Part shown: positions 3,365 to 41,995 of the stretch, in pieces | Layout of the letters: every line of letters starts with the position of its first letter | How positions within the stretch are numbered: position 1 is the stretch's first letter | Origin: Escherichia phage vB_EcoM_SA21RB | DNA: 64,000 nt | Strand: one strand, 5' to 3' | Sequence record: OL960580 | Notes under the pieces: generated by a model | Databases searched by the model: none | What the model saw: the letters and a program-made list of their open reading frames with translations, nothing else | Told to the model about the DNA's origin: nothing | Made by a program: the position numbers and the translations under genes

Positions 3365-3382
3365 AAAGGGCCGAAGCCCTTT
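3365..3382 (-). terminator. hairpin terminator after a-gt
   Basis: GGGC-CGAA-GCCC stem-loop overlapping the a-gt stop; weak U-tract. Confidence 0.45.
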
Positions 3383-4583
3383 ATTTTGTAATAATGTCAA
3401 ACTGCTCTTTAAAGCAGAAGCTTGAATCTTGATGCTGATACAAAAATTCATATGCTTTTTCTCGCTCACGATCATAAAGAGCTCGGTCAGATGACAGTTC
3501 TTTAATACGTTCAAATGTTGATTCCATATCATTTTCATCAAACCAAATGATACCGCTATCATGCGAGGTCAAAGGAGTATTATCAACACGGAATTTTAAA
3601 TTTTCGCCAGTAGATTTCCAAAATACCGGAATTGTTCCACATGCACCAAGCTCGAGATGAGTATATTCTAAAGAACGTTGTAGATATTTTTTATCTAATT
3701 TACTCAGCTGATAACCAAATCCGGATTTACTCATGCGTTCAAGCATTTCGCTATTTACATAACGGTCGAGAATTTGCGTTGGCAAATTAGGAGCAATTTT
3801 AATTTGGTCTACTTGATGAAGACGATAATACTCGTATGGAATTCCTTTTTCTTTAATAGGAATGAATGCTGGAGAACGTTCCAGACCTTCCATAATAGTA
3901 CTTAGTCCTGCAGGTTTAAGATGTTTTTCGTGAAAATCAAACATCTGATAAAAGCCTTTCCATGTAGTAGTACGACCAATCCAACGGTTGATATTCATGT
4001 TAATTTCAGAAACATCTTTCCAGTAAGTTGATCGAACCTTCGCAATATCCATAGGAGGCTGGAAGTTATATACGGTCGGTGCTTCTTCAATATCATCAAA
4101 CAGAGAAACAGTTTCCGGATACCATTCTTTCATCAGAACTTTATTAAAATCACCATTATCAGAATGACTAAAAATAACATCAGCTCGACGAACAGTTTCT
4201 TCTAATCCCAAATTTCGACGTAAAGAAAGAGAAGAATGGTCATGTTGATAAACTACAACACGAACCGAAGGTTTAATGTTATCAATAATTTTTTTATAGT
4301 TATTAATTGTGTCTTCTTCGACTGAAGTAGCAGGAACTGAATTGATAATTAGAATATCACAATCATTTACCAGCTTAAGTGTTTTATCGTATTCTTTTGC
4401 CAATAAAACCGGAATTGAAAATGACTTATAATCATGCGCGCAATTACGAGTAAATGATTTATCTTTAGCATAAACCAAAGTTACTTCATGACCATTTTTA
4501 ATAAACCAATCACGCTGCTCAAGAGAAAATTTAGTTACGCCACAACCTTCAAGACCTCGAGCCATAAAAATGCATACTTTCAT
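3381..4583 (-). CDS. a-gt: DNA alpha-glucosyltransferase
   Basis: 400 aa, T4 alpha-GT length; sequence recognisably T-even alpha-glucosyltransferase; position 47 / a-gt / 55. Confidence 0.85.
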   Translation of the reverse strand: MKVCIFMARGLEGCGVTKFSLEQRDWFIKNGHEVTLVYAKDKSFTRNCAHDYKSFSIPVLLAKEYDKTLKLVNDCDILIINSVPATSVEEDTINNYKKIIDNIKPSVRVVVYQHDHSSLSLRRNLGLEETVRRADVIFSHSDNGDFNKVLMKEWYPETVSLFDDIEEAPTVYNFQPPMDIAKVRSTYWKDVSEINMNINRWIGRTTTWKGFYQMFDFHEKHLKPAGLSTIMEGLERSPAFIPIKEKGIPYEYYRLHQVDQIKIAPNLPTQILDRYVNSEMLERMSKSGFGYQLSKLDKKYLQRSLEYTHLELGACGTIPVFWKSTGENLKFRVDNTPLTSHDSGIIWFDENDMESTFERIKELSSDRALYDREREKAYEFLYQHQDSSFCFKEQFDIITK

Positions 4584-30470: not shown

Positions 30471-30944
30471 TTATTTGAATGATTTGACGTACTGAATAGA
30501 ACCTTTACTATTCACGAAAGCGATTTTACCATTTTTATTATACATGGTAGCAGTACGCTGATAGCCATAAGTTTGTTTACCAGATTGATAACCAACTAAT
30601 GCGAAATTATCTTCACCCATTTTATTCTGTTTAGCGCGAATACGTTCATGACCGTGTGCCATAAGAACCTTAGCATCACCAGTTGCAATGGATCGACGAG
30701 TTTTTTCATCTTCAACTGTATTAACAAAGTCGTCAAATGAATCAAATTTAGCATGAGATTTATTATACAGTTTTCCATCTACTGCATAATTATATCCTTG
30801 TACATCCATCTCAACTTCTGTACCATCATCCAATACAGCAGTGATTTTCTGACCTTTTTTAAATTTCAAAAGATCAGTAAAAGATTCAGCAATAATTTGA
30901 GAATTAATAGCTGCTTCAGTAATAAATTCTTGATATGTTTTCAT
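30471..30944 (-). CDS. internal-protein-like protein with capsid targeting sequence
   Basis: 157 aa; N-terminal MKTYQEFITEA (T4 internal-protein targeting peptide with L/I-x-E cleavage motif); adjacent to ipIII. Confidence 0.65.
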   Translation of the reverse strand: MKTYQEFITEAAINSQIIAESFTDLLKFKKGQKITAVLDDGTEVEMDVQGYNYAVDGKLYNKSHAKFDSFDDFVNTVEDEKTRRSIATGDAKVLMAHGHERIRAKQNKMGEDNFALVGYQSGKQTYGYQRTATMYNKNGKIAFVNSKGSIQYVKSFK

Positions 30945-30985: not shown

Positions 30986-31567
30986 TTAAGAATTACCACG
31001 GGCTGCATTAGCAACGGCGTAAGCGTACTGAACATTAGCGTCTTTAAACGTACCTTTAGAGGTATCTAGTTCTGCCTTAAAGCCGCCTTTAGTCATAACC
31101 TCGGCGAATTCTTTACGGAAAGCCATTGCATCAAGGCTTCTCCATGATGATTTGTGCTTGGCGAATTCAAGACCAGCGTAGTTGACAGCCTTAGCTAATT
31201 TATTATCAATAACCCATTTACCAGATTTAGGCACAAACACCGGGCCTTTCTGTTTAGAGAATAGTTTTAAATTCCAGCGACGAAGGTCACCGTCAGCTTT
31301 AACAAAAGCTGCGTCCAAGTTACTAGCAACAACATCTTGAATATGACCAAATTTAAGCCCATCAACTTCAATATTTAAATCGGTACGCCAGCGAAGTCCT
31401 TCCCAAGCGAAGGCTTTAAAGTCGGAAGCCTTTGTAGCTAAGTACCGTTCAATAGGAGCTGTTTTAGGGTCAAAGCCGTTTCCCGATCGGTAGGTCCACT
31501 CATCTTTATTAATGCCTTTGGCCTTTACTACAGAAGCTTCGGCAATAAATTCTTGATAGGTTTTCAT
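30986..31567 (-). CDS. ipIII: internal protein III
   Basis: 193 aa; MKTYQEFIAEASVVKAKG targeting peptide and body matching remembered T4 IPIII; early promoter upstream. Confidence 0.85.
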   Translation of the reverse strand: MKTYQEFIAEASVVKAKGINKDEWTYRSGNGFDPKTAPIERYLATKASDFKAFAWEGLRWRTDLNIEVDGLKFGHIQDVVASNLDAAFVKADGDLRRWNLKLFSKQKGPVFVPKSGKWVIDNKLAKAVNYAGLEFAKHKSSWRSLDAMAFRKEFAEVMTKGGFKAELDTSKGTFKDANVQYAYAVANAARGNS

Positions 31568-36108: not shown

Positions 36109-36672
36109 TTATTTATCTAGTTTAGTTATTATAGCTTCTGCGGCAGCTTTTAGCTTAGATGCGGTGTTAATACGATTTTTAATTTCAGTATACGCATCGC
36201 CAAGAACATCAAGGCTATCAGAATAAACACTTACACTATTGCGTTCGCTATTTGAAATAGAACCTTTAGTTTTACGATCAAAATCGGTGTACACGTCTTG
36301 AAGATCACGGGCTGCCTTCTTTGCATCATCCAATGCGTCAAGAGCTTTATTCAAAGCATTAACGTATTTTTTAGTGTCAAACATATTCTTAGAAATTTTA
36401 ACAGGTGCGCGTTCAGGAGTAGCTAATGTAGATTTAGGAACCTGAGCGCCAGATGCCAATTTCTTAGAAATTTTGAAAAACGCTTTATTGAATTTATTTT
36501 CTTGACTCATCGTAAAAGAACTATTATCGATGTTGTACATTTCAATAGCTTTAGCTTTCCACTTAAGAAAATCGCCGCGGTCTTTTGGGTCCAAGTGGAA
36601 GAATACTTTAGTAAGATCTGCTTCAGATGGTAATTTTGCTGCTTCGGTTAAAAATTCGGCATAGGTTTTCAT
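36109..36672 (-). CDS. internal-protein-like protein with capsid targeting sequence
   Basis: 187 aa; N-terminal MKTYAEFLTEAAK resembles the T4 internal-protein targeting peptide; terminator hairpin downstream. Confidence 0.55.
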   Translation of the reverse strand: MKTYAEFLTEAAKLPSEADLTKVFFHLDPKDRGDFLKWKAKAIEMYNIDNSSFTMSQENKFNKAFFKISKKLASGAQVPKSTLATPERAPVKISKNMFDTKKYVNALNKALDALDDAKKAARDLQDVYTDFDRKTKGSISNSERNSVSVYSDSLDVLGDAYTEIKNRINTASKLKAAAEAIITKLDK

Positions 36673-36796: not shown

Positions 36797-37270
36797 TTAT
36801 TTGATTTGTTTAGCAGACCAAATGCGGTCTTTGATGATTTTTTGAATGTCTTCAACATACTCTAGGTCATGAGCATGTGGGTTATCTTTGAAACTATAGG
36901 CACGGGCTAACTTTTGGCCTTCGGTTTTGATTACTAAAAGCTCTTTAAGGATAGCTTCATACTTAGCGATAATTCCTTTAACAATATTTTTTTCTTGTGT
37001 AGCTTTAGGATCTGCTTTAGGAGCAGGTTTACCCGAAGCCTTTGCAAAAGCAGCACCAGTAGCAACTAAACTTTTCCAGGCCATACTAACCGCATTTCCC
37101 GTAAATCCTTCTGCTTTCATGTCGCGAGCAAATTGGAATCGTGATTCGTCAGAAGCATCTTTATAGGAATATTTACCTGCTGCAATGGCTGCTTTTGCGA
37201 CAGCTTGAATTTCGGTGCTAGATGCTTCATTTAACACCGCTTCATTTAAAAATTGAGCATATGATTTCAT
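36797..37270 (-). CDS. internal-protein-like protein with capsid targeting sequence
   Basis: 157 aa; N-terminal MKSYAQFLNEAV; flanked on both sides by near-identical terminator hairpins. Confidence 0.55.
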   Translation of the reverse strand: MKSYAQFLNEAVLNEASSTEIQAVAKAAIAAGKYSYKDASDESRFQFARDMKAEGFTGNAVSMAWKSLVATGAAFAKASGKPAPKADPKATQEKNIVKGIIAKYEAILKELLVIKTEGQKLARAYSFKDNPHAHDLEYVEDIQKIIKDRIWSAKQIK

Positions 37271-37320
37271 CTTATTTCCTGTTTTAATTCGTAGATTTAA
37301 TATACTACTATATTTATACT

Positions 37321-37664: not shown

Positions 37665-37740
37665 TGGTCGAGGCAGTAGGGATCGAACCTACGACCTAGG
37701 ACTTAGAAGGTCCTTGCTCTTCCTTCTGAGCTATGCCCCG
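37665..37740 (-). tRNA. tRNA-Arg (anticodon UCU)
   Basis: hand-folded cloverleaf; anticodon loop CTTCTAA; T-loop TTCGATC; encoded CCA. Confidence 0.85.
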
Positions 37741-37744
37741 TAAT

Positions 37745-37820
37745 TGGGGTGACCGATGGGAGTCGAACCCATGACTACGAGAATCACAATCTCGAGTTCT
37801 ACCAACTGAACTACGGCCAC
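37745..37820 (-). tRNA. tRNA-His (anticodon GUG)
   Basis: hand-folded; D-stem GTTC/GAAC, anticodon loop TTGTGAT, T-arm ATGGG-TTCGACT-CCCAT, discriminator C, encoded CCA. Confidence 0.8.
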
Positions 37821-37934
37821 ATTAATACCTACTCCAACAATCAAGATGTCTTCACACGAAATTAAGAGAAGAGTGATCAGTTCAACCCCGATAATCGCGT
37901 CAAGTAGATATTAATGTGACAGTTGTCACAAATT

Positions 37935-38009
37935 TGGCGGACGTGATAGGATTCGAACCTATAACCAATCGCTTAACAGGCGATCGCTCTGCCATTGAGC
38001 TACACATCC
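37935..38009 (-). tRNA. tRNA-Asn (anticodon GUU)
   Basis: hand-folded; acceptor GGATGTG/CACGTCC, anticodon loop CTGTTAA, T-loop TTCGAAT, encoded CCA. Confidence 0.85.
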
Positions 38010-38013
38010 AAAT

Positions 38014-38100
38014 TGGTGGGGAGTGATGGAGTCGAACCACCCGAGTCGCAATGACAATGGATTTACAGTCCACACCGCTACCTCTACGGGATAACTCCCC
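38014..38100 (-). tRNA. tRNA-Tyr (anticodon GUA)
   Basis: hand-folded; perfect acceptor GGGGAGT/ACTCCCC, anticodon loop CTGTAAA, long variable arm as in bacterial tRNA-Tyr, encoded CCA. Confidence 0.75.
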
Positions 38101-38113
38101 TTAATTCTTAATT

Positions 38114-38188
38114 TGGTGGCCCTGGGTGGAATTGAACCACCATCTGGCGATTATGAGTCGCTTGCTTGAACCTTCCAGCTACAGGGCC
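38114..38188 (-). tRNA. tRNA with CAU anticodon (Ile-lysidine type or Met)
   Basis: hand-folded; acceptor GGCCCTG/CAGGGCC, anticodon loop CTCATAA; lies after tRNA-Thr, where T4 has tRNA-Ile. Confidence 0.8.
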
Positions 38189-38189
38189 T

Positions 38190-38264
38190 TGGTGCTGATT
38201 GACGGAATCGAACCGCCGACCTTCTCATTACAAGTGAGTTGCTCTACCTACTGAGCTAAATCAG
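38190..38264 (-). tRNA. tRNA-Thr (anticodon UGU)
   Basis: hand-folded; perfect acceptor GCTGATT/AATCAGC, anticodon loop CTTGTAA, encoded CCA. Confidence 0.88.
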
Positions 38265-38270
38265 CAAAAC

Positions 38271-38360
38271 TGGCGGAGGCGATAGGATTTGAACCTATGA
38301 GTCGCCGGAGCGACTGCCGGTTTTCAAGACCGGTGCATTAAACCACTCTGCCACGCCTCC
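38271..38360 (-). tRNA. tRNA-Ser (anticodon UGA)
   Basis: hand-folded type II tRNA; acceptor GGAGGCG/CGCCTCC, anticodon loop CTTGAAA, long variable arm, encoded CCA. Confidence 0.85.
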
Positions 38361-38362
38361 AG

Positions 38363-38436
38363 TCTCCATACAAGGATTTGAACCTTGGACCTCCTGATCC
38401 CAAATCAGGCGCTCTACCAAACTGAGCTACACGGAG
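38363..38436 (-). tRNA. tRNA-Pro (anticodon UGG)
   Basis: hand-folded; anticodon loop TTTGGGA, T-arm CAAGG-TTCAAAT-CCTTG; CCA not encoded. Confidence 0.75.
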
Positions 38437-38446
38437 TAAATTAAAT

Positions 38447-38520
<74 letters not shown>

Positions 38521-38525
38521 AAATT

Positions 38526-38612
38526 TGGTGCGAGAAGTGGGACTCGAACCCACAAGGAAATCATTCCGCAGCATTTTAAGTGCTGTGCCTTTACCAATTT
38601 GACCATTCTCGC
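38526..38612 (-). tRNA. tRNA-Leu (anticodon UAA)
   Basis: hand-folded type II tRNA; acceptor GCGAGAA/TTCTCGC, anticodon loop CTTAAAA, long variable arm, encoded CCA. Confidence 0.85.
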
Positions 38613-38613
38613 G

Positions 38614-38686
38614 CTGGGAATAAAGGACTCGAACCTTTGCATCCTGGAATCAAAATCCAGTGCCTTACCAACTTGGCTAATTCCCA
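38614..38686 (-). tRNA. tRNA-Gln (anticodon UUG)
   Basis: hand-folded; perfect acceptor TGGGAAT/ATTCCCA, anticodon loop TTTTGAT; abuts tRNA-Leu (dimeric precursor as in T4); CCA not encoded. Confidence 0.85.
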
Positions 38687-39580: not shown

Positions 39581-40000
39581 TCAGCCTTCATCAACAATAG
39601 TATGAGTGTGGGCATTTACAATTTGCCACCAATCAAAGCGATTAGAACCATACATCGGTTTGTTTTCATTTTCTTTGATAATATCACGGAGTTCATCTTC
39701 GGTAGCGGCTTTCGCGATTAAATCAGCATATCCACCACGAGGATAATAATTATCACCTGCAAAAAGTAAAAAGTTCGGTTTAATATTATTGAACTCTTCA
39801 AGAGTAATAACTTTTCCTGTCGGTTGAACAATCTCTACATATTTATATCCTAATTTTTGAGCAGCATCTACTGCTTCAAGCAAAGTATCATGAGCCCATC
39901 CAATTTGACAACCTGGCTTTTCAGATGGATTAGCCTGATAATCCGCGTACACTTTATACATTCTATTCACCTTTAGAAATTTTATCCATAACGATAGCAA
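39581..40000 (-). CDS. hypothetical protein
   Basis: 139-aa ORF. Confidence 0.45.
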   Translation of the reverse strand: MLSLWIKFLKVNRMYKVYADYQANPSEKPGCQIGWAHDTLLEAVDAAQKLGYKYVEIVQPTGKVITLEEFNNIKPNFLLFAGDNYYPRGGYADLIAKAATEDELRDIIKENENKPMYGSNRFDWWQIVNAHTHTIVDEG

Positions 40001-40148
40001 TTAAACCAATTAAAAATGCTACTACAAGTGAAAAAACATTTTCTGCTGTAGTTAATAATCCGCATATAAATCCAACAAACATTGAAAAACTAAAAGCAGA
40101 AGCAGAAATTGCAATAGCAACATTTCGAATTAATTCACAACGTTTCAT
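39963..40148 (-). CDS. small membrane protein
   Basis: 61 aa with two hydrophobic segments; early promoter upstream. Confidence 0.45.
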   Translation of the reverse strand: MKRCELIRNVAIAISASAFSFSMFVGFICGLLTTAENVFSLVVAFLIGLIAIVMDKISKGE

Positions 40149-40172
40149 TTTATTCTCCTCAGTAGTTGATAG

Positions 40173-40208
40173 GGTAATAGTATCACAACTAAAACCCTAT
40201 GTAAACAA
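40173..40208 (-). promoter_or_regulatory. T4 early promoter
   Basis: minus strand GTTTAC ... GATACTATTAC. Confidence 0.55.
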
Positions 40209-40224
40209 CTTTGTGAAATATTTA

Positions 40225-40512
40225 TTACAAAAGATTTTTAGCAATAATCTTGAGATGTGCCGCAGAAATGTGTTTAGCTTTAAACAACGCAGTTTCTTCA
40301 GCAGGAGAGATAACGATTGTAGCACCATCCTTTTTAGCAGACCACCCATCGCCTAGGTAAACAGTACCTTTGATTTCTTCGCCATCAACCAGACTAATCA
40401 TTGGTTTACCTTCTCGTCCTTTATTTGCTTTAATAACTTCAGAAGTAAGAGTAGCTTCGGTAATAGTAGAAACCGGGGTAGTTGTAGAAGTAAATTCTTT
40501 GAAAGTTTTCAT
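40225..40512 (-). CDS. ipI: internal protein I (capsid-packaged, injected; inhibitor of a type IV restriction enzyme in T4)
   Basis: 95 aa; 19-aa targeting peptide MKTFKEFTSTTTPVSTITE followed by a 76-aa body, matching the remembered IPI precursor/mature sizes; directly upstream of 57B; early promoter upstream. Confidence 0.6.
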   Translation of the reverse strand: MKTFKEFTSTTTPVSTITEATLTSEVIKANKGREGKPMISLVDGEEIKGTVYLGDGWSAKKDGATIVISPAEETALFKAKHISAAHLKIIAKNLL

Positions 40513-40538
40513 TTTATTTTCCTAATTAATTTTGATGA

Positions 40539-40574
40539 GATAATAGTATCACTACCTCATCAACGTGTAAACAA
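40539..40574 (-). promoter_or_regulatory. T4 early promoter for ipI
   Basis: minus strand GTTTAC ... GATACTATTAT, 30-60 nt upstream of ipI. Confidence 0.6.
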
Positions 40575-40584
40575 CTTTGTGAAA

Positions 40585-41281
<697 letters not shown>

Positions 41282-41282
<1 letters not shown>

Positions 41283-41995
41283 TATAGTACCTTTAGTGTA
41301 TTTTTAATTTTAGAAAAAAGTTCTTCAAGAGAACCATCGTTTGTAATTACTAAATCGCCATCACGAATTGGCAATCCAGCTTCTGTAATATGAGTATCAT
41401 TGGATTTTTGACCAGGACGAACTACATGAATTACTGTAGCACCCATCGCCCTAGCCGCATCCATTTCATGATCTTGACGAGTATCAGGAACGATATAATA
41501 ATCATAACCTGAGTTAAATTTATCAAGATAATCTAAAGCAAATAATTTTACCCAATACATGCGGTCGAAGTTATTAACAATCAAATCCGTACCTAGGGCT
41601 TGCATCAGACGACGGACTGACCATTGATCTTCAATATTATTTATAACGTCAGCAATCTTGTTAAATGCTACGAAATTAACTGCGTCATCAAAAACAAACA
41701 CACCTTTAATTGGGCTTTTACTATTAAGATAACAAAATGCTTGTTCCATAATCGTAATTACTTCTAATTTAGTCAGATTTAAATTAGTCTCACGATCATA
41801 GTCAATTCCTTCAAACTCTTTACGAGTTAAGCAAGGATAGTCAGTGTTTGCTGCAAATACGCCCCATGCATAAGCCAATGCATCTTTAATAGGACCAGCA
41901 AGTTGATATTTAACTGCAGAATAATTATTCATGATAAAATCTGCAGTAGTATCTTTTCCACTACGCTTTACACCACTTAAAAAGATTAGTTTCAT
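41282..41995 (-). CDS. 1: deoxynucleoside monophosphate kinase gp1
   Basis: 237 aa; P-loop GVKRSGKDT at N-terminus; position 57A / 1 / 3. Confidence 0.88.

What the first reader, a model, noticed from the sequence alone, without database searches (positions are those of the whole stretch)
40225..40512. Internal protein I-like gene with a distinct 19-aa targeting peptide
The 95-aa ORF has a targeting peptide (MKTFKEFTSTTTPVSTITE) unlike the MKTYQEFIAE type on the other internal-protein-like genes, followed by a 76-aa body, matching the precursor and mature sizes I remember for T4 IPI, the injected inhibitor of a type IV restriction enzyme. If this is IPI, its variants bear on host range against modification-dependent restriction.
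Basis: partly seen in the sequence, partly recalled or inferred. Interest (0 to 1): 0.4.

Follow-up and report, generated by a model that had tools for sequence, protein, structure and literature searches.

The report
Phage T4 internal protein I gene
This is the well-known T4 gene ipI, whose product is packed into the phage head and injected with the DNA to block a host restriction enzyme; here the protein is identical to the T4 one, so the finding is correct but ordinary.

Summary
The 95-aa ORF is real and lies on the minus strand at 40225..40512. All 95 residues, including the 19-aa leader, are identical to T4 IpI (AF158101, X03016). Residues 20-95 are identical to the solved structure of mature IPI* (PDB 2JUB, 76/76). 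It scores 180 bits against Pfam PF11634 "IPI_T4" (cut-off 25).

The DNA differs from T4 at four synonymous sites inside the ORF. The gene sits in the T4 position, trna.4 – ipI – 57B – 57A – 1 – 3 – 2 – 4, behind the same early-type promoter (TTTACA-17-TACTAT).

The window is not T4 itself but a close Tequatrovirus relative: the best 17-kb matches are 96-97% identical. It also encodes DNA alpha-glucosyltransferase, so the substrate of GmrSD-type restriction is expected to be present.

The leader is not really "unlike" the MKTYQEFIAE type. It shares MKT[YF]xEF and the protease site [I/L]-x-E|A, with about nine extra Thr/Ser-rich residues in between.

The gene is already known: an injected, capsid-targeted inhibitor of the CT596-type GmrSD type IV restriction enzyme. 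Interest is low.

The side observations (un-named proteins with a capsid targeting sequence, and PeSL-like repeats flanking ipI) are more informative than the gene itself.

The parts
40225..40512 (-). ipI coding sequence (95 codons plus the TAA stop at 40225-40227)
   Evidence: ORF list. 100% protein identity to T4 IpI. Four synonymous differences from T4 DNA. Pfam PF11634 at 180 bits. phrog_4363 'internal virion protein'.
40456..40512 (-). Codons 1-19: the propeptide / capsid targeting sequence MKTFKEFTSTTTPVSTITE, ending in the prohead-protease motif I-T-E followed by Ala
   Evidence: The solved mature protein 2JUB starts at residue 20. M1 K2 T3 E6 F7 T18 E19 A20 are invariant in six homologues, while residues 8-17 vary. 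IP propeptides of 10-19 residues target the proteins to the prohead core and are removed by gp21 (PMC9026906).
40228..40455 (-). Codons 20-95: mature IPI* (76 aa, calculated 8.0 kDa, pI 9.0)
   Evidence: 76/76 identical to PDB 2JUB chain A. Mass and pI computed, matching the ~8 kDa basic protein described in PMC9026906.
40520..40523 (-). Shine-Dalgarno-like AGGA, 7 nt upstream of the ATG
   Evidence: Read directly from the sequence; identical in T4.
40543..40571 (-). Sigma-70 / T4 early-type promoter TTTACA-17 nt-TACTAT with TG before the -10 box
   Evidence: Consensus scan. Both hexamers are conserved in T4. It fits the PST/T4 PeSL promoter consensus TTTACW-N17-TAYWAT (PMC4122927). Function is inferred, not shown.
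40532..40585 (-). Upstream copy of a 54-nt direct repeat (promoter plus a short stem-loop) flanking the ipI cassette
   Evidence: the repeat finder family D1, 78% identical to the copy at 40166-40219. The predicted stem-loop is weak (-6.6 kcal/mol, z -1.6).
40166..40219 (-). Downstream copy of the same repeat; it is the promoter region of the next gene, trna.4 (39963-40148)
   Evidence: the repeat finder D1. Promoter TTTACA-17-TACTAT at 40205-40177. Stem-loop -8.1 kcal/mol, z -2.7.

Best explanation
This is the ipI gene of a T4-like phage (genus Tequatrovirus), and its protein is identical to T4 IPI. The 95-aa precursor is made in the infected cell. Its N-terminal 19 residues act as a capsid targeting sequence that brings it into the scaffolding core of the assembling prohead. 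The prohead protease gp21 cuts after Ile-Thr-Glu19, leaving the 76-aa basic protein IPI* free inside the head at about 360 copies. At the next infection IPI* is ejected with the DNA. There it binds and inactivates the CT596-type GmrSD type IV restriction endonuclease, which would otherwise cut the phage's glucosyl-hydroxymethylcytosine DNA. Shown here: sequence identity, gene position, promoter conservation, the cleavage motif, and the presence of a DNA alpha-glucosyltransferase gene in the same window. Inferred from published work on the identical T4 protein: packaging, cleavage, ejection and inhibition.
For: The full protein is 100% identical to T4 IpI. It is 76/76 identical to PDB 2JUB IPI*. 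It matches Pfam PF11634 IPI_T4 at 180 bits against a cut-off of 25 and phrog_4363 'internal virion protein'. There are only four synonymous substitutions relative to T4 within the ORF, which indicates purifying selection. Gene order matches T4: trna.4 – ipI – 57B – 57A – 1 – 3 – 2 – 4. The [I/L]-T-E|A site and MKT..EF are invariant in homologues from four genera or species. The window has an alpha-glucosyltransferase at 3381-4583 (PF11440, 788 bits), so the GmrSD substrate is expected. [quoted passage not shown] Ip1 inhibits GmrSD(CT596) specifically, and not the ECOR21 or ECOR17 variants (PMC12373910). IPI is present at 360 copies, is cleaved, and has a 10-19-aa CTS propeptide (PMC9026906).
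Against: Nothing in the sequence argues against it. Caveats follow. No experiment was done on this phage. The hosts this phage meets may or may not carry an IPI-sensitive GmrSD. No late-promoter box (TATAAATA) lies between 57B and ipI; the nearest on this strand is at 41638-41645 inside gene 1. How the protein is supplied during head assembly therefore rests on T4 knowledge rather than on anything seen here.
Confidence: 0.97

Rival explanations
1. The protein is a head-internal, DNA-associated structural or scaffold component, and anti-restriction is not its relevant role in this phage, for example because its hosts lack IPI-sensitive GmrSD.
For: The IPs are basic and abundant (about 300-370 copies each) and were long assumed to interact with DNA. 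IPIII loss slows head assembly (PMC9026906). Mature IPI here has pI 9.0.
Against: The same review reports that IP genes are dispensable on standard hosts, and the only IPI phenotype is restriction on CT596-type strains. The protein is identical to the tested inhibitor. Only synonymous changes were seen against T4, which argues that the specific fold is being maintained.
Confidence: 0.02
2. The ORF is a chance open frame or a decayed remnant, and the real feature lies on the opposite strand (mechanical ORFs 40213-40356 and 40370-40525 on the plus strand).
For: Two short plus-strand ORFs of 47 and 51 aa overlap it.
Against: The frame is intact with ATG, an AGGA ribosome-binding site and a promoter. 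It is 100% identical to a purified, structurally solved protein. It is conserved in 291 phage records. The plus-strand ORFs have no support of any kind, and all neighbouring genes are on the minus strand.
Confidence: 0.005

Closest known systems
Bacteriophage T4 internal protein I (IpI / IPI*, gene ipI, NP_049749; PDB 2JUB; Pfam PF11634)
   Same: All 95 residues are identical, including the 19-aa propeptide. The cleavage site, flanking genes, promoter hexamers and ribosome-binding site are the same.
   Different: There are four synonymous nucleotide changes in the ORF and four changes upstream: a 3-nt substitution (CGT vs TAC) in the promoter spacer just after the -35 hexamer, one substitution (T vs C) downstream of the -10 box, and a 1-nt deletion in the leader. 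The surrounding genome is not T4 (96-97% to ECML-134/ime09-type phages).
T4 IPII / IPIII and other internal proteins of T-even phages that carry a capsid targeting sequence (CTS)
   Same: They share the targeting logic: N-terminal MKT[YF]xEF...[I/L]xE|A, removal by gp21, packaging and ejection. Ip2 and Ip3 also inhibit GmrSD variants (PMC12373910). IPIII itself is in this window at 30986-31567.
   Different: The mature parts show no detectable similarity (blastp). The IPI leader is 19 aa rather than 10 aa. Each Ip inhibits a different GmrSD variant, with no cross-protection.
IPI alleles of RB69 (Mosigvirus) and dhabil (Dhakavirus)
   Same: Same family, length and gene position next to trna.4. 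The core GREGKP...KGTVYLGDG...KKDG..IVISPA is invariant.
   Different: Identity is 88% (RB69) and 58% (dhabil). The differences concentrate in leader residues 8-17 and the C-terminal helix. Their target specificity is untested.

Membership tests
T4 IPI (Pfam PF11634 IPI_T4, nuclease inhibitor) | Sequence match to the family profile above the curated threshold, over the full length | tested here: met
   180.1 bits against a cut-off of 25; protein residues 20-95 match profile positions 1-76 of 76.
T4 IPI (Pfam PF11634 IPI_T4, nuclease inhibitor) | Same fold as the solved IPI* structure | tested here: met
   Not modelled, because the mature sequence is 76/76 identical to PDB 2JUB chain A.
T4 IPI (Pfam PF11634 IPI_T4, nuclease inhibitor) | N-terminal propeptide with a capsid targeting motif, ending in the gp21 site [L/I]-x-E | tested here: met
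   MKTFKEF...I17-T18-E19|A20. These positions are invariant in six homologues. The leader is identical to T4's.
T4 IPI (Pfam PF11634 IPI_T4, nuclease inhibitor) | Conserved genomic position between trna.4 and 57B | tested here: met
   Window ORF order compared with the T4 annotation and phage Aplg8.
T4 IPI (Pfam PF11634 IPI_T4, nuclease inhibitor) | Actual cleavage, encapsidation (about 360 copies) and ejection with the DNA | not testable with these tools
   Known for the identical T4 protein (PMC9026906). Needs virion mass spectrometry for this phage.
T4 IPI (Pfam PF11634 IPI_T4, nuclease inhibitor) | Inhibition of CT596-type GmrSD restriction of glc-hmC DNA | not testable with these tools
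   Shown for the identical T4 protein (PMC4437046; PMC12373910). Here only the context could be checked: the alpha-glucosyltransferase gene is present at 3381-4583.

The most novel reading that the evidence does not exclude
The only part of IPI that varies appreciably among close relatives is the middle of the leader (residues 8-17, Thr/Ser/Pro-rich; one phage has an extra Thr), while the mature inhibitor is nearly frozen. The extra 9 residues, absent from the 10-aa CTS of the other internal proteins, might have a role of their own. They could, for example, tune copy number, the timing of release by gp21, or the position of IPI in the core so that it leaves the head first. The alternative is that they are a neutral spacer.
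Probability: 0.1. Interest if true: 0.3.

Novelty: already known. Interest (0 to 1): 0.06.

Why it matters
It confirms that this phage carries the canonical T4 allele of the injected anti-GmrSD protein. That predicts it should plate on hosts with CT596- or Eco94-type GmrSD. It says nothing about other GmrSD variants, since each Ip is specific to one. This is useful for annotation and for host-range prediction of a therapeutic or environmental T4-like phage, but it adds no new biology.

Tried and rejected
1. I looked for a T4 late promoter (TATAAATA) next to ipI. None lies between 57B and ipI. The window total of 12 matches equals chance expectation (10.8), so nothing can be concluded from it.

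2. I checked the overlapping plus-strand ORFs (40213-40356 and 40370-40525). They have no support and were rejected.

3. I tried to read the primary papers: Rifat 2008 (PMC2255585), Bair 2007 (PMC1868451) and Repoila 1994 (PMC395341). None is held in the library. Published facts are therefore cited from PMC9026906, PMC4437046 and PMC12373910.

4. I considered that the window might be T4 itself. This was rejected. The best 17-kb matches are 96-97% identical and none reaches 99%. There are 11 tRNAs instead of 8, a different protein sits in the ipII slot, and gene 1 is 237 aa rather than 241 aa.

5. Structure prediction, the large protein-database searches and the metagenome scans were deliberately not run. 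Identity to a solved structure makes them uninformative.

6. The stem-loop in the upstream repeat is weak (z -1.6). I do not claim it is a terminator.

Full report
**Observation**

The window has an ATG-initiated 95-codon ORF on the minus strand at 40225..40512.

**Identity**

- A search of all PDB chain sequences returns one hit, 2JUB chain A, 'Internal protein I'. It is 76 residues long, and residues 20-95 of the ORF align to 1-76 with every position identical (E = 1e-44).
- Pfam gives PF11634 'IPI_T4, nuclease inhibitor from bacteriophage T4' at 180 bits against a gathering score of 25, covering the whole profile.
- PHROGs gives phrog_4363 'internal virion protein'.
- tblastn against 50,697 phage records finds 291 records with a homologue. 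In 74 the identity is at least 99%. The 100% full-length matches include T4 itself (AF158101.6 73594-73878, annotated 'ipI: IpI internal head protein') and the original T4 sequence X03016.1, 'internal capsid protein (Ip)I precursor'. The 19-residue leader is therefore also identical to T4's.
- At the DNA level the ORF differs from T4 NC_000866 at four positions, all synonymous. The flanks differ at a handful of positions.

**Context**

- The order trna.2-like, trna.3-like, trna.4 (39963-40148), ipI, 57B (40585-41040), 57A (41040-41282), gene 1 (41282-41995), gene 3, gene 2, gene 4 is the T4 order.
- Upstream of ipI on the coding strand lies TTTACA-17 nt-TACTAT with a TG extension (40571-40543). 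An AGGA lies 7 nt before the ATG. Both promoter hexamers are conserved in T4.
- The same promoter architecture precedes trna.4 (40205-40177). The two promoter regions form a 54-nt direct repeat, 78% identical, that brackets ipI. This fits the 'PeSL' promoter-early/stem-loop cassettes, whose consensus for the PST/T4 pair is TTTACW-N17-TAYWAT. These are held to mediate modular gene shuffling in T4-type phages (PMC4122927). The predicted hairpins are modest (z -1.6 and -2.7).
- No late-promoter box lies next to ipI.

**What genome this is**

It is not T4. Over 17 kb around the gene the best public matches (ECML-134, ime09, SH-1 and others) are 96-97% identical, and none reaches 99%. The tRNA cluster has 11 genes where T4 has 8, and the T4 annotation has segB in that cluster. 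The slot beside ipIII holds a 157-aa DUF7412 protein rather than T4 IPII.

The window also encodes DNA alpha-glucosyltransferase (3381-4583, PF11440, 788 bits). The phage is therefore expected to carry glucosylated hmC, which is the substrate of GmrSD-type enzymes.

**The leader**

Four other ORFs in the window begin with a 10-residue capsid targeting sequence followed by Ala:

| ORF | Length | Leader | Note |
|---|---|---|---|
| 30986-31567 | 193 aa | MKTYQEFIAE | IPIII |
| 30471-30944 | 157 aa | MKTYQEFITE | |
| 36109-36672 | 187 aa | MKTYAEFLTE | |
| 36797-37270 | 157 aa | MKSYAQFLNE | |

The IPI leader shares MKT[YF]xEF at the start and [I/L]-x-E|A at the end, and carries about nine extra Thr/Ser/Pro-rich residues in between. 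Apart from the N-terminus, the five proteins show no pairwise similarity.

In an alignment of IPI from this window, T4, ECML-134, RB69, UFV05 and dhabil, the positions M1 K2 T3 E6 F7 T18 E19 A20 are invariant. Residues 8-17 are the most variable part of the protein. The mature body is almost unchanged within Tequatrovirus and Mosigvirus. 'Distinct' is therefore fair for length, but it is the same kind of signal, as the literature also states (PMC9026906).

**Mechanism**

The following is established for the identical T4 protein and inferred here.

- IP propeptides of 10-19 residues target the proteins into the prohead core and are removed by the gp21 protease. IPI is present at about 360 copies, is cleaved, and is ejected into the host (PMC9026906).
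[quoted passage not shown] Co-expressed IPI* abolishes the restriction and the toxicity of the enzyme (PMC4437046).
- Ip1, Ip2 and Ip3 each inhibit one GmrSD variant, with no cross-protection (PMC12373910).
- The calculated mature protein here is 76 aa, 8.0 kDa, pI 9.0, matching the described ~8 kDa basic protein.

**Comparison and membership**

Every sequence-level defining feature of the IPI family was tested and met: profile match, identity to the solved protein, propeptide with cleavage motif, and gene position. The biochemical features (cleavage, packaging, ejection, inhibition) cannot be tested with these tools. They rest on identity to the tested protein.

**Verdict**

The gene is T4 ipI in a T4-like phage and is already known, so interest is low (0.06). 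The least conventional reading not excluded is that the variable extra segment of the IPI leader has a function of its own. I put that at about 0.1 probability and modest interest.

Noticed in passing
window 36109-36672 (-) and 36797-37270 (-): Two adjacent ORFs (187 and 157 aa) start with CTS-like leaders MKTYAEFLTE|A and MKSYAQFLNE|A. Both fall in phrog_2280 'unknown function'. The 157-aa one has homologues in 511 phage records, and every listed record that carries an annotation calls it 'hypothetical protein'. A TATAAATA late-promoter box sits at 37311-37318 (-), about 40 nt upstream of the second ORF. T4 has no gene of this size at this position, between e.8 and rnaC. They look like un-named injected internal proteins, and so are candidate inhibitors of further defence systems.
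   Followed up: partly
window 30471-30944 (-): The slot next to ipIII (30986-31567), where T4 has the 100-aa IPII, holds a 157-aa CTS-bearing protein. It matches Pfam DUF7412 and phrog_3155 'internal virion protein', and its leader is MKTYQEFITE. This phage's set of injected proteins therefore differs from T4's, and its target is unknown.
   Followed up: partly
window 40166-40219 and 40532-40585: ipI is bracketed by a 54-nt direct repeat (78% identical) made of an early promoter (TTTACA-17-TACTAT) and a short inverted repeat. This matches the PeSL cassettes proposed to drive modular gene shuffling in T4-type phages, and the bracketing would allow ipI to be lost or exchanged as a unit.
   Followed up: partly
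window 40585-41040 (-): The gene directly upstream of ipI (T4 57B; RefSeq calls it 'RNA ligase') matches Pfam PF23474 Acb1, the anti-CBASS protein, at 203 bits. Two counter-defence genes thus sit side by side.
   Followed up: no
window 37665-38686 (-): The tRNA cluster has 11 genes: Arg, His, Asn, Tyr, Met(CAT), Thr, Ser, Pro, Gly, Leu, Gln. T4 has 8. In the T4 annotation the segB homing endonuclease gene lies between tRNA-Arg and tRNA-Ile, whereas here tRNA-His follows tRNA-Arg after 4 nt. The CAT-anticodon tRNA occupies the position of T4 tRNA-Ile.
   Followed up: no
window 40456-40512 (-), alignment A2: Among IPI homologues, leader residues 8-17 are the most variable part of the protein (TS-TTTPVSTI / TSTTTTPVSTI / IS-PVANVSTL / TS--TTNASTL). 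The mature inhibitor is nearly invariant within Tequatrovirus and Mosigvirus.
   Followed up: partly
window 3381-4583 (-): A DNA alpha-glucosyltransferase gene is present (PF11440, 788 bits). This implies glucosyl-hmC DNA, the substrate of the enzyme that IPI inhibits.
   Followed up: no
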